Of a stretch of DNA of 64,000 nt, positions 1 to 64,000 are shown piece after piece (the first letter of the stretch is position 1; the number at the start of each line of letters is the position of its first letter). The stretch comes from an uncultured Nitrospiraceae bacterium (GTDB lineage Bacteria > Nitrospirota > Nitrospiria > Nitrospirales > Nitrospiraceae): positions 832,001-896,000 of the forward strand of contig CAVSTP010000004.1 in assembly GCA_963730935.1 (NCBI GenBank), read 5' to 3'. The position numbers were made by a program.

Positions 1-3000
1 GGGACTTGGCGCTTCCTCAAAACCGAACAGGCGCTGAAGGTCAGCCAAGCGAAAACACTGGAGGCCCTGCGGCAAAGCGATGCGGTCAAATCATCATTGT
101 TGTCCTCGGTCTCCCATGAGCTCCGGACGCCGCTGACGTCGATCAAATCGATGCTGTTTAGCTTGCACCATGATGGGCCGCTGAGTCGAGTGAGTGCAGA
201 TATCGTAGCCAGCATCGAGGAGCAAGTCGATTATTTAAACCGACTTGTGGGCAACCTGTTGGACATGTCTCGTCTGGACTCCGGCACGTTACAACCGCAT
301 CGTGAATGGAACATCTTGGAGGACTTGGTCGAAGGAGCGATCCGTCGCCTCGGCGTCTTTATCAAAGACCGGCCCATCGACGTACAGCTTGCGCCGGATC
401 TTCCACCCATTTCAGTGGACGCGGTGCAAGTCCAGCAGGTGCTGGTCAACCTGCTGGAGAATGCTGTGAAATTTTCCCCTCCCGGCTCATCTATCCGGCT
501 GGCCGCATCAGTCAGGGACCGAGAGCTGGAAGTGTCGGTGACAAATACCGGCGAGGGGATTCCTCCCGATGAACTCGAGAAAATCTTTGAGCGCTTCTAT
601 CGATTAGTGCCGAGACAGTCTTCGAGGCCGCCAGGAACCGGCCTTGGACTGGCTATTTGCAAAGGCATTATCGAAGCTCATGGCGGTCGGATCAGCGCTC
701 GATCAATCGGTGGCGAGACGATCTTTCTGTTCCGGCTACCTTTCACGAGTCCGATGAGCCAACACAGCATTTCCCTGCTACCGCTGGAGGGGGCGTCATG
801 ACCACCGGCGCGCGCATTCTCGTCATCGATGACGAAGCACCAATTCGCAGGTGGCTCAAAGTGAATCTTGAAACTCGAGGATATACGGTCGATACGGCAG
901 AGACAGGTGAACAGGGGATCAAGGCATTAGAAAACCGGCGGCCAGACCTTCTCATCCTCGATCTGCTGATGCCAGGCATGGGTGGCATCGACGTGGTACG
1001 AAAGCTCCGTAGCGTTTCAACCATCCCTATCATCGTGTTATCAGCCATTGGAGAAGAAGCACAGAAGGTTCAGGCGCTTGAGCTCGGCGCCGACGATTAC
1101 ATGACGAAGCCCTTCGGGATGGAGGAGCTTTTCGCGCGCATACGATCGTTGTTGCGGCGGGCCGCTGGCGCCACGAGCGCCGCTCCGGTCTTCGTCGCAG
1201 GCGACCTGTCGGTGGACTTCGACCGACGGGAAGTGAGGCTCGATGGCCAACCGATCAAATTGACGCCCACCGAATATGACTTATTGAAATACATGATTGA
1301 ACATGCCGGGAAAGTGCTCACGCACCGAATGCTGCTTCAGGAAGTCTGGGGCCAAGCCTACATCGATCAGGCTCAATACCTGCGTGTGTTCGTCGGCCAG
1401 CTTAGAAAAAAAATCGAAAAACATCCTGGCCGACCGCGGTTCATCCTCACCGACCCCGGCGTCGGATACCGCTTCTGCTCAGACACGGACGATTGAGTCC
1501 AAGCATCCTGTCCTTCCGAATCTTTACGCCTTCTTTATGAGCGCCCCTCCATCTCCGTATCGAGTCCTTATGTCACGAGAGTGTAGCGTGTAGTCTCGTC
1601 AAGAGCGACGCAAGCTCTGTAAGGAGACCACTGGGGTCCGACCTGTGACAAATCTAATCCCGCGCATGCTCTCCATTTGGGCCATCTTTCTCGTATCCGG
1701 AACAGCGCCGTCACCAGGGGCCGTGGCCTTGGACCCTGTCATCGACATCGCGTTTCAATCGAGCGCGCCGTACTACGAGCCACCTGTGGCTGTCGTGCCA
1801 ATGGACACGCCGATTCGCTGGGTCAATGCCACGGCATCTCCCCATAGTGTTCGACACGACGCATGTATCGACGAGGAGCCATGCCCGTTTCAATCTATCG
1901 CCATCCCTCCCGATAGTAACTTCGTCGTCGCCCCCTTGCCTCCCGGTCGCTATGCCTATCACTGCGAGCTGCACCCCATCATGCGAGGCTCTCTGCTAGT
2001 CATCGACCCCTCCTCGACGCATAAGAACGATGAGAAGGGCACCCCATGACCCGCCCAGGACCGGCTGGGCTATTGGCTGAAAACGACGGTGCCTTGGGGC
2101 GCGGCTAATGTCTCGGATCCTCATTGTTGATGACGAACCGCATATCTGCGAAGCCTTACAGGACTCCCTGCAGGCCGACGGGTATGACGTGCTTGTCGCC
2201 CACGATGGTCAAGCAGCTATTGGGCTCATTGCTTTGGAAGCCCAGCGAGGCCCCATCACGGGTGCGATTTTGGACATGGAAATGCCGATCGTTCACGGCA
2301 TCGAGGTGCTTCGGCGGCTCCGAAAGCAGTATCCGGATCTTCCCATCTTGATGGTCTCGGCCAATCACGACAGGAAGATGTACGACGAGGCTATGCGCAG
2401 CGGCGCCAATGGATACTTACCCAAGCCGTTTAGTCGAAAGCATTTGGTCCATCTATGCAGCAAACTCTTTCGAGGTGGACCTCCTATTGATCCCAAGCCG
2501 GACTCATGACGCCGTTGCTGGGCTTCGTTTGACTAGTGGGGAGAGAGCGAGAGCGATGCACAAACAGAGCTCTCGGGTTGCTACTGACGATCAGATCCTT
2601 TCTGTTTGCTGTGTCTGTGGTCTCATCAGAGATGAGATGGATTCGCTCCCCGATGAGCGCTGGGTGACAATGCAAATCTTTCGACAAACTCATGGTCTAG
2701 ATTCAGCCGCTTACCGCCTCACTCACACGTACTGCCCTGCGTGTTATACCTTGTTCATGAATCGAATTGCTGCCACTTAGCAGGACTGTCTCGTTTTGTT
2801 CTCGCCAGTATGGGATTCGCCGATTTGGCTTTGCCGCTCTTCCAGACACTTCGACGAGACTCTGAGGTTTCCGTTCTGTGGCCGTGATCATCTGGGGTCT
2901 CGCCACATTCATGCTGAATTGAATTAGTATGAGAGTATTCTGTCCGATCTGGTATCTGGAAGTTATTGAAAGTATGTCATTAACCTTCTGAGTTTTATAC

Positions 3001-63000: not shown

Positions 63001-64000
63001 GTGTGTGAAGCCACCCACGGCCTTCCTCAGCAGACGGCCGTTCAGCGACATAGGCTTCGAGCCGGCGTCGTTCATTGTGCAATCGCCGGACCGCCATTTC
63101 TTGATCGACTCTCCGCCACAGAGAATCGAAAGTGCCAAGCGATGGAAACGTCAGAACGATTTGTCCACCTGGCTTCAGATGTGCCGACAAACCCTGTATC
63201 GCTGCGAGCCGATCGGGTCGGAAGAACATGACCGACAAATTCCCAGTGATTCGATCAAAACTCGGCAGGTTCGACGGCAGTGCGCGCATATCAAGACACT
63301 CGAACCGTAACCAAGGGAGTTGCTGCCCTTGAATGATCCGGGCGCTCCCCACCTGATGCGCACTGAGATCGATACCCAGTACCTGTCCGGCCGGACCTAC
63401 CTGCTCGGCAAGATGGAAGGCAGGAATCCCATGCCCTGAAGCCACATCCAAAATTGTCGCTCCAGAGAAGAGGTCCAGATGCGTGAGCAACGATTCGGCG
63501 AACGGGGTCGACCAGGGGTCATGTTTGGGAAGAGGCCAAGACGGCACGGAAACCCTTTCAATCTAATCCAGCCAGCCGACAGTGCGATGGCCGGCTACTC
63601 ACCGGAGATTTCAAAGCCTATAGATGGAGGATGATGCGCCTATGCCCGCTTGCGATGCAAGACACCAGCAGGGCCACTCTACTCCAGCTTATTCAGTCTC
63701 GCTCAGGGCTAGTTCATCCAAGCAAGGATCCGTCCAAGTCTCGCCCTAACGCACTAGTCCGCAGTCATATTTCGACTATTTCTTGCTAAACAGAAAGCCC
63801 TATCGCAGGATGGCGGAGACTACGTTCTGTTCACTTCATTTGCAACCTTAAAGGAGGGCGTTATGGGAATGGGTAGAGTTCTCGTAGTAGATGATGAGGC
63901 GCATATCAGAACGACCGTCAGAATGGCACTGACCAAAGCTGGATATGACGTCGTCGAGGCAGAAGATGGTGAAAAGGGAATCCAGGCGATCAAGTCAGAC

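What a model noticed while it worked through the whole genome (the two positions that open the first line are those of the whole stretch)
1..64000. Integrase-less, integron-like array of >40 promoter-bearing gene cassettes
C4:798.8-920 kb is a ~120-kb array of small unrelated accessory genes separated by a conserved ~45-nt site (AGAAACGGTGTCAGGAACCATTTC-GCGGCGCGTGGCGGGCCGGC), all copies in one orientation. In other Nitrospira_C genomes the array sits at the same chromosomal site (flanks collinear) while the units between sites are individually conserved (80-97% nt) but differ in order, neighbours and content, i.e. they behave as mobile gene cassettes. Unlike integron cassettes many carry their own promoter-like element (TAGACC-N17-TAGAAT) found nowhere else in the genome, there is no IntI integrase, and the site is not a canonical attC. 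The only recombinase gene inside is a REP-associated Y1 (HUH) transposase [...]
Evidence so far: Core-site profile (nhmmer): 42 of 48 genome-wide hits lie in C4:798.8-894 kb, 42/42 on +. Longer 130-190-nt repeat version: 34 of 38 hits in C4:798.8-855.6 kb, all +. Relatives G029, G030, G028, G025, G021: left flank collinear to C4:777-795 kb at 88-95% id, then 0.3-1.6-kb blocks matching array units, some matching units elsewhere in this genome. Order of shared blocks (>=300 nt, >=80% id): G029 22 blocks, Spearman rho 0.88 but 3 of 21 neighbouring pairs adjacent in both; G030 20 blocks, rho 0.42, 2 of 19; G021 12 blocks, rho 0.43, 1 of 11; orientation kept in 19/20, 12/12, 6/6. Of 126 ends of 63 shared blocks 38 lie inside a recognised site/repeat and 55 within 50 nt, against 6% and 12% of The finding spans contig positions 798800 to 920200; this window holds only 832001 to 896000 of it. 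[...]
(Added by a program. Inside this text positions count along the whole contig: contig position 832,001 is position 1 of the stretch shown here. "Call 12" and the like, gene names such as g00115 and contig names such as C1 are that model's own, and its searches are not shown. The text may have been shortened before it was handed on; [...] marks where a part breaks off. The agent that wrote the report below was given it as the finding of a first reader that could run no searches.)

Follow-up and report, generated by a model that had tools for sequence, protein, structure and literature searches.

The report
Integrase-free shuffled gene cassette array
Nitrifying Nitrospira bacteria carry a long row of small accessory genes, each bounded by the same 17-letter DNA tag, that are swapped and reordered between strains like integron cassettes but without an integron's enzyme or sites, pointing to an undescribed way of capturing genes.

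Summary
The array is real: 49-57 same-strand sites at C4:798.9-902 kb (29 in the window, 0 on the other strand). The invariant part is a 17-bp core, TTCGCGGCGCGTGGCGG, not a 45-nt site. Units run core to core, mostly one gene each, and are reordered between close relatives at 91-100% identity. The distal end is old and collinear; the proximal end is strain-specific. The core occurs in 92 of 201 family genomes (15 of 33 genera), beside the same radical-SAM gene where assembled. Variants left of the core travel with the upstream unit, those right of it with the downstream unit, so exchange is inside the core. They abut 322 of 595 cores and seem to create cassette ends. Promoters mark only a minority of units. 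No attC, IntI, Cas1, IS110 or TrwC tracks the array, and TIRYT is not enriched in array-rich genomes, so the shuffling enzyme is unidentified. The scan earlier noted TIRYT ends at island joints in other genomes, but not this core.

The parts
1..64000 (+). Middle and distal part of the core-delimited cassette array (whole array about C4:798.9-902 kb). Shuffled zone to about window 18 kb; mostly collinear with G029 beyond.
5428..5444 (+). Core, followed by the long repeat and a -35/-10 element at 5499-5527
5901..5917 (+). Weak core; leader with -35/-10 at 5954-5982, 91% like the leader at 19629-19717 but in front of a different gene
6291..6325 (+). TIRYT terminal repeat type D followed by a decayed core
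6327..6453 (-). 5' fragment of a TIRYT gene (first 31 codons, 81% amino-acid identity to the intact copy at C4:809,462-810,139) with its inverted type-A terminal repeat
6832..6848 (+). Core with abutting type-B terminal repeat
7280..7296 (+). Core (type-B repeat); unit holds a DoxX gene
7972..7988 (+). Core (type-D repeat); unit holds an ankyrin gene, found at 93-94% in G030 with other neighbours
9030..9046 (+). Consensus core (type-D repeat)
10441..10457 (+). Core (type-D repeat); unit holds a short-chain dehydrogenase, 96% to a G029 unit with other neighbours
11473..11489 (+). Core with no terminal repeat; unit holds a SnoaL gene
11880..11896 (+). Core with no terminal repeat; unit holds an Xre-RES toxin-antitoxin pair (11905-12794, - strand)
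13646..13662 (+). Core (type-D remnant)
14972..14988 (+). Core
17551..17567 (+). Consensus core, no terminal repeat
18361..18397 (+). Type-D terminal repeat (7-bp hairpin) plus core at 18381-18397
18882..18898 (+). Core a few bases after a stop codon
19585..19601 (+). Core; -35/-10 at 19642-19670; unit holds a GYD gene
20043..20059 (+). Core (type-D repeat)
21963..22075 (+). Full repeat unit: type-B terminal repeat, core (21983-21999), pyrimidine tract, then -35/-10 (22036-22064) overlapping an inverted type-B terminal repeat
23506..23522 (+). Core
25185..25201 (+). Consensus core (type-D repeat)
25733..25749 (+). Core (type-B repeat); unit holds a SUI1 gene with homologues in six other arrays
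26257..26273 (+). Core
28328..28375 (+). Type-B terminal repeat with a core shortened by deletion
31521..31537 (+). Weak core
32445..32461 (+). Core (type-D repeat)
33893..33909 (+). Core (type-D repeat)
36613..36629 (+). Core
38030..38046 (+). Decayed core; -35/-10 at 38099-38127
41179..41195 (+). Decayed core (type-B repeat)
44233..44306 (+). Type-A repeat, then type-D repeat, then a decayed core at 44290
47460..47476 (+). Core (type-D repeat)
48820..48836 (+). Core
55176..55192 (+). Weak core
61925..61941 (+). Core (type-D repeat); -35/-10 at 62046-62074

Best explanation
A chromosomal gene-cassette array, fixed beside a B12/radical-SAM gene in Nitrospiraceae, whose recombination site is a non-palindromic 17-20-bp core in direct repeat. 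Shown: a unit runs from just right of one core to just left of the next; units change neighbours, are copied within an array and can land at a lone core elsewhere; the proximal end is youngest. Inferred, step 1 (capture): TIRYT transposase elements insert next to genes and into this locus, and their terminal repeats become fused, inner end first, to a core. This gives a gene a cassette end and sometimes an outward promoter derived from an inverted repeat. Inferred, step 2 (shuffling): a unit leaves as a circle by exchange between two near-consensus cores and re-enters at another core, preferentially near the proximal end. The exchange is made by a sequence-specific activity supplied from outside the array, inherited with the host lineage, and neither IntI nor necessarily the TIRYT. 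Cores then decay and units become fixed.
For: Junction mapping (pairs with flanks at least 92% identical and different neighbours). Non-consensus bases at -14..-1 are shared in 126 of 268 cases when the upstream unit is shared, against 44 of 402 when the downstream unit is. Bases at +17..+30 are shared in 209 of 345 cases when the downstream unit is shared. Core bases are shared with neither (6 of 101; 2 of 97; random 2-3%). G030 contig C5 shares 10 of 17 units with its C4 array at 91-100%, in the order 22,26,15,17,14,19,27,21,28,29; 1 of 5 testable adjacencies is kept. Polarity: core score falls and spacing grows left to right (G030 rho -0.37, G029 -0.40), and G000/G029 are collinear distally, shuffled in the middle and unrelated proximally. 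A unit at C4:535.8-536.4 kb, far from the array, is a core-to-core homologue (82%) of a G029 array unit. The core is unchanged across 15 of 33 genera while the repeats beside it differ by genus. TIRYT ends abut 322 of 595 cores against 3 of 595 random positions. One cargo gene ends at a type-C repeat in G000 and G005, and at type-A plus type-D repeats further on in G026; a G016 copy has neither repeat nor core in the stretch read.
Against: No enzyme was identified. No excised single-unit circle appeared in contigs of four runs. The score gradient is not significant in G000 itself (rho -0.16, p 0.25) or in G389, and has the opposite sign on one G409 contig. No attI-like site or conserved gene lies at the proximal end in 18 genomes. 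Core conservation is flat and without covariation, which also fits plain homology; my site model was built on the core and favours it. G030 C5 may be a second strain or species in the bin.
Confidence: 0.45

Rival explanations
1. The TIRYT does everything: it binds its terminal repeat on single-stranded DNA, nicks 5-16 nt further on inside the core and joins cores by strand transfer. Strains without an intact copy are inactive or receive it intermittently.
For: It is the only recombinase gene in the array, with two further fragments; intact copies sit in the array of G027 and G001 too. Three repeat families meet the core in exact register. G005 has a core element where G000 has the whole TIRYT, left of the same gene. 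Precedents: TnpA-REP cleaves and rejoins 5' or 3' of its REP (PMC8266576, passages); the HUH relaxase TrwC recombines at a 17-bp core (PMC3264647, passages).
Against: A match at E<1e-40 was found in 5 of 14 array-rich genomes against 71 of 201 overall (hand count). No Y1 gene was found in G029, G030, G028 (76-92% complete). 0 of 80 metagenomic TIRYT loci carry a core. Units with no adjoining repeat change neighbours. TIRYTs lie in arrays in both orientations and one splits a site.
Confidence: 0.25
2. No dedicated enzyme: host homologous or short-homology recombination, perhaps fed by uptake of DNA, uses the repeated core. The core is kept because only units with an intact core spread.
For: No candidate recombinase tracks the array. 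Core conservation is flat, and most changes are transitions. No fixed crossover point could be resolved within the core.
Against: Perfect identity between sites of one array, read rightwards from the core start, reaches 30 nt in only 3 of 6,718 pairs, and is 18 nt at the rearranged G030 junction sites printed. That is at or below the length RecA uses efficiently (recalled, about 23-27 bp in E. coli). The core stayed the same across genera while the longer flanking repeats diverged; homology alone would let both drift.
Confidence: 0.2
3. A degenerate integron (CALIN): the core is a remnant of a short attC overwritten by TIRYT ends, worked by an IntI in trans.
For: 11 nt of the core (TTCGCGGCGCG) equal the apex of the aadA1 attC and of an attC beside a Nitrospiraceae IntI. 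IntI passes the cut-off in 18 of 201 family genomes.
Against: An R-box-plus-fold test finds attC in R100 and beside IntI in five family loci but none at a core. R-box pairs span 3 of 498 cores against 1-6 at random. 8 of 10 site folds are no better than shuffles. None of 14 array-rich genomes has an IntI hit.
Confidence: 0.05
4. Not a cassette system: a hotspot where a TIRYT-derived miniature element piled up between acquired genes, with order differences caused by deletions and independent acquisitions.
For: The full repeat looks like a miniature element with terminal repeats at both ends. TIRYTs cluster at this locus even without cores in G416. Earlier notes reached this verdict for other genomes.
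Against: Its two halves travel with different neighbours. 532 sites against 1 share one orientation in 53 regions. Near-identical units are permuted, which deletion cannot produce.
Confidence: 0.05

Closest known systems
Sedentary chromosomal integrons and CALINs (PMC4889954, passages)
   Same: Long array of mostly single-gene units at one chromosomal site, all sites in one orientation, a young end and an old end, shuffling and copying of units.
   Different: No IntI, no attC fold or R boxes, no attI found. Cargo lies on both strands (162 first genes on +, 108 on -) and a minority carries its own promoter. The site is a plain 17-20-bp direct repeat.
TIRYT / TIRtron elements (PMC3733652, passages; TnpA-Y1 subclass 2.1, 10.1101/279083, part 3 and passages)
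   Same: The array's transposase has the HUH and Y---NP motifs and is flanked by inverted repeats fitting GGGGWSAS; its relatives' repeats form the flanks of the site.
   Different: In the passages read, those papers describe transposase genes, repeat monomers, dimers and clusters, not a second conserved core or ordered cargo arrays. The exchange point lies outside the terminal repeat.
IS26 translocatable units and targeted conservative cointegration (PMC7885326, abstract and outline only; the rest recalled)
   Same: Genes interspersed with directly oriented copies of one element; a unit carrying one copy can join at another copy.
   Different: IS26 is a complete DDE insertion sequence that encodes its own enzyme and reacts at its ends; here the spacer is 17-190 bp, non-coding, and is crossed in its middle.
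HUH relaxase site-specific recombination (TrwC at oriT; PMC3264647, passages)
   Same: A 17-bp asymmetric core beside an inverted repeat suffices for site-specific recombination and integration.
   Different: TrwC was found in 0 of 16 array-rich genomes; no natural cassette array of this kind is known to me.
CRISPR arrays and pdif modules (recalled)
   Same: Polarised direct-repeat array (CRISPR); gene modules bounded by short host-recombinase sites (pdif).
   Different: Units are 0.15-13 kb genes and no Cas1 was found in 5 of 5 genomes. The core is unlike the dif candidate at C4:619,458.

Membership tests
Integron / CALIN | IntI tyrosine recombinase | tested here: not met
   Best TIGR02249 score 86 bits against cut-off 265 in G000; the two best tyrosine recombinases are XerD and XerC; no hit in 14 array-rich genomes.
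Integron / CALIN | attC sites: R boxes at the ends of a hairpin | tested here: not met
   Heuristic with positive controls finds none at cores; 3 of 498 against 1-6 at random. No curated attC covariance model was run.
Integron / CALIN | attI and Pc at the proximal end | tested here: inconclusive
   No core-like or conserved site right after the flank gene's promoter in 18 genomes; an unrecognised site cannot be excluded.
Integron / CALIN | Units move singly between same-orientation sites | tested here: met
TIRYT / TIRtron (the transposase gene) | Y1 HUH protein with the class-2 Y---NP motif | tested here: met
   PF01797 E 8e-14; HFH and YILRNP in the sequence; 72.9 bits, below the 80-bit cut-off for REP-type RAYT.
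TIRYT / TIRtron (the transposase gene) | Flanking terminal inverted repeats fitting GGGGWSAS | tested here: met
   Inverted GGGGACAG repeats on both sides, one with a single change; consensus.
TIRYT / TIRtron (the transposase gene) | C-terminal helix-turn-helix extension typical of subclass 2.1 | tested here: inconclusive
   Pfam shows only Y1_Tnp on the 225-aa protein; no tree was built.
TIRYT-derived miniature element (the repeat) | Moves as one piece bounded by its terminal repeats | tested here: not met
   Left and right halves travel with different neighbours.
REP / REPIN | Palindromes dispersed genome-wide in both orientations | tested here: not met
   49 of 57 strong sites lie in one region on one strand; no covariation in the core.
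CRISPR | Short spacers and Cas1 | tested here: not met
   Median unit 1,056 bp; Cas1 in 0 of 5 genomes; Rfam finds only a fluoride riboswitch in the window.
pdif / Xer modules | 28-bp XerC/XerD site | tested here: not met
   The dif candidate at C4:619,458 does not resemble the core (search pattern recalled).
Any dedicated site-specific system | An enzyme that recombines the site, and a circular intermediate | not testable with these tools
   No circle among contig joints; activity needs bench work.

The most novel reading that the evidence does not exclude
A second, independently evolved integron-like system: a family-wide gene-capture platform in Nitrospiraceae that uses a 17-bp direct-repeat core and its own recombinase (an unknown host protein or a domesticated HUH transposase), with TIRYT ends supplying the step that turns ordinary genes into cassettes, the step still unexplained for integrons.
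Probability: 0.6. Interest if true: 0.9.

Novelty: categorically new. Interest (0 to 1): 0.78.

Why it matters
Integrons are the well-described bacterial device (my knowledge) that stockpiles and reorders single-gene cassettes at a fixed chromosomal site. This array behaves the same way but fails the integron's defining tests, and its site is conserved across about half the sampled genera of a major nitrifier family. It would be a large, unrecognised source of accessory and defence genes that attC-based tools cannot see. It gives a short, defined substrate for finding a new recombinase and a first testable role for TIRYT transposases, for which I found only two relevant papers. It also shows visible intermediates of cassette birth.

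Tried and rejected
Candidate enzymes. IntI: not met. XerC/D: present but the core is unlike dif. IS110: none in G000, G029, G030. Y2/IS91: nothing rang, controls included, so uninformative. Cas1: 0 of 5. Serine resolvases: four in G000, none in the array, none in G029, G030, G389. TrwC: 0 of 16 array-rich, 2 of 12 array-poor genomes. Rep_trans: 10 of 16 against 8 of 12, and no core near six such genes. No conserved recombinase gene was seen between the flank and the first core in 18 genomes (output partly cut, ORFs read by eye). Chi-like role: core words show no obvious strand skew. Secondary structure in the core: no covariation. Target-site duplication of the core: adjacent cores share variants 52 times against 43.7 expected (p 0.08), so only a hint; two striking cases exist (C4:535.8/536.4 kb; G456). 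Replication-strand rule for lone cores: mixed. Phage carriage: one viral hit, scoring as a single site in high-GC DNA. Plasmids: chance-level matches. Laying four DNA runs showed alternative neighbours (for example 21009 to 18375, 20404 to 9031) on short contig sides but no single-unit circle; RNA runs held too small a share to lay. The G016 row had wrong coordinates and was ignored; that comparison rests. Ten paper searches (listings read) showed no description of this array; subscription journals are mostly missing and supplements were not read.
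Full report
OBSERVATION. The window is the middle and distal part of a repeat-delimited region on contig C4. 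A site model finds 29 sites on + and none on - in the window, against 0-2 in 30 shuffles. Genome-wide at a stricter cut-off, 49 sites lie in C4:795-925 kb, all on +, and 8 lie elsewhere. A first model converged on 57 sites between 798,895 and 902,054. The genes between sites are small and unrelated: dehydrogenases, SnoaL, GYD, PilZ, DoxX, an Xre-RES pair, response regulators and many unknowns. Across 21 arrays 151 of 270 units with a called gene hold one gene, and the median unit is 1,056 bp. A TIR-domain and caspase pair lies before the first core.

WHAT THE SITE IS. Over 595 distinct sites only a 17-bp core, TTCGCGGCGCGTGGCGG, is well conserved: 81-95% per position, mostly transitions, no covariation. 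The sequence to its left is the terminal inverted repeat (TIR) of a Y1/HUH transposase. The intact gene at C4:809,462-810,139 is flanked by inverted GGGGACAGGCTAC repeats. Relatives show four subfamilies, each with its own TIR, and these four are the motifs found left of the cores. A fifth motif, which I recall as a TIR of the same kind, takes that place in another genus. This matches the TIRYT/TIRtron class with consensus GGGGWSAS (PMC3733652, passages; 10.1101/279083, part 3 and passages). A TIR abuts 322 of 595 cores in exact register, against 3 of 595 random positions. It still looks selected as a promoter: spacing is 17 in 42 of 62 cases, the common variants keep TAnnnT, and the first gene is on the driven strand in 22 of 26 units with the motif against 140 of 244 without (p 0.006). 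It marks about a third of units here (18 in the array, 2 elsewhere).

THE UNITS MOVE, AND EXCHANGE IS IN THE CORE. In bin G030, contig C5 shares 10 of its 17 units with the C4 array at 91-100% identity, in permuted order, with 1 of 5 testable adjacencies kept. Contig C6 is collinear with C4 at 97%. C5 may be another strain, which does not change the point. For homologous units with different neighbours (flanks at least 92% identical; 42 and 46 pairs, some counted through more than one genome), non-consensus bases at -14..-1 follow the upstream unit (126 of 268) and those at +17..+30 follow the downstream unit (209 of 345). Core bases follow neither (6 of 101 and 2 of 97; random 2-3%). The reciprocal counts are 44 of 402 and 102 of 424; the latter is above the random 14-16%, probably because sites of one genus share their right-hand repeat. 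So the repeat does not move as one miniature element. Units lacking any TIR also change neighbours. Units are duplicated within arrays (G030 1 and 12, 6 and 16, 30 and 33). One unit sits 260 kb away at C4:535.8-536.4 kb between two cores and matches a G029 array unit core to core.

POLARITY. Against G029, 2 of the first 13 units have a homologue over at least half their length, the middle units are shared but permuted, and units 35-49 are collinear but for one (counted by hand). Collinearity continues to C4:927 kb. Core scores fall with distance from the left flank in G030, G029 and G456, not significantly in G000 or G389, and rise on one G409 contig of unknown position. Spacing grows in G000, G029 and G030.

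DISTRIBUTION. The core pattern occurs in 27 of 33 genomes of the genus and in 92 of 201 of the family, in 15 of 33 genera, with one reversed-pattern control hit. Outside the family it hit 1 of 250 genomes of the phylum. In the genome collection, hits in other phyla were single sites with no array (80 of 108 loci had flanks). Where assembled, the array follows the same radical-SAM gene in at least three genera. In 53 regions with three or more sites, 532 sites share one orientation and 1 does not. The tallies include G335 and G373, marked unpublished; no specific claim rests on them.

WHICH ENZYME. IntI is absent from this genome and was not found in any of the 14 genomes with ten or more core hits. 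A test for attC that recovers real attC sites in R100 and beside family IntI genes finds none at a core. The 11-nt identity between the core and the apex of short attC sites is noted but does not give a functional attC. The TIRYT is the only recombinase in the array, yet strong matches occur in 5 of 14 array-rich genomes and 71 of 201 overall (hand count), and 0 of 80 metagenomic TIRYT loci (327 kb) hold a core. TIRYTs lie in arrays in both orientations, and one has split a site. IS110, Cas1, TrwC, Rep_trans and serine resolvases do not track the array. Many array-rich genomes are fragmented, so misses are not absences. Perfect identity between sites is under 30 nt in all but 3 of 6,718 pairs, which is short for RecA (recalled).

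MECHANISM. Shown: core-to-core units, relocation, copying, polarity, TIRYT ends fused to cores. Inferred: TIRYT ends create cassette boundaries. The same cargo gene ends at a type-C TIR plus core in G000 and G005, at type-A and type-D TIRs plus core further downstream in G026, and at neither in the stretch read from G016; G005 has a core element where G000 has the whole transposase. Inferred: units leave as circles and re-enter at another near-consensus core. I put 0.45 on a sequence-specific activity from outside the array, 0.25 on the TIRYT itself (precedents in PMC8266576 and PMC3264647, passages), 0.2 on host short-homology recombination, and 0.05 each on a degenerate integron or a mere hotspot. 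That it is a working or recently working cassette array that is not an integron I put at about 0.85.

COMPARISON AND NOVELTY. It works like a sedentary integron (PMC4889954, passages) and resembles IS26 arrays in logic (PMC7885326, abstract and outline), but fails the defining tests of integrons, CRISPR, pdif modules, REPs and miniature elements. 10.1101/119735 (passages) shows that some RAYT-like groups are more mobile than REP-type RAYTs. Ten library searches showed no description; the term TIRYT gave two relevant papers. Supplements were not read and could list Nitrospira repeats. Earlier notes of this scan describe TIRYT ends at island joints in other genomes and mostly judged them not to be cassette systems; I had reached the TIRYT reading before seeing them. 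None matched this sequence. The difference here is a second, conserved core with mapped exchange. Verdict: real, probably a new kind of cassette system, enzyme open; interest 0.78.

Noticed in passing
G000 C4:533,412-536,459 (L079) and 7 scattered copies: A second repeat family ending in GACACCCCTTCCCAAGGGTGGC forms a four-copy direct array among small genes and lies next to three of the lone cores. Possibly another cassette-like site.
   Followed up: partly
L232-L311 and G000 C4:810,150-810,195: Many TIRYT elements carry a 10-20-nt tandem duplication of the outer end of their terminal repeat plus flank, and some sit inside remnants of another family's repeat; a clue to how they nick and insert.
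   Followed up: no
L002:3400-6900 and the same interval in relatives: The stretch between the flank gene and the first core is a defence-gene hotspot (TIR-domain, caspase and others) with its own roughly 200-nt repeat, repeated within some genomes.
   Followed up: partly
L204-L206 (G236): In another genus a long palindromic TCTGG-rich repeat replaces the repeat to the right of the core.
   Followed up: partly
L353 (G416): Three TIRYT genes or remnants cluster right after the flank gene with no core in 15 kb.
   Followed up: no
L341 (G456) 13911 and 14599: Two adjacent sites share a variant core and 112 identical bases to its right but have different cargo; may be a cassette caught at birth.
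   Followed up: partly
window 58330-58395 (-): Fluoride riboswitch upstream of a Na+/H+ exchanger-family gene at 57050-58306.
   Followed up: no
window 28432-30637 (+): Polyphosphate kinase gene split over two overlapping frames; pseudogene or sequencing error.
   Followed up: no
G000 C4:1,464-1,507 kb: A second cluster of TIRYT terminal repeats in both orientations, with no core in the 40 kb scanned.
   Followed up: partly
G027 C1:2,599,407-2,600,342: An integron integrase with a long N-terminal extension and no attC box pair within 20 kb on either side.
   Followed up: partly
G000 C4:619,458 (-): Candidate dif site near the GC-skew switch; the array starts 180 kb from it.
   Followed up: no
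G000 C4:805,004-805,153 (-): A 3' fragment of the TIRYT, 96% identical to the intact copy, between two terminal repeats.
   Followed up: yes
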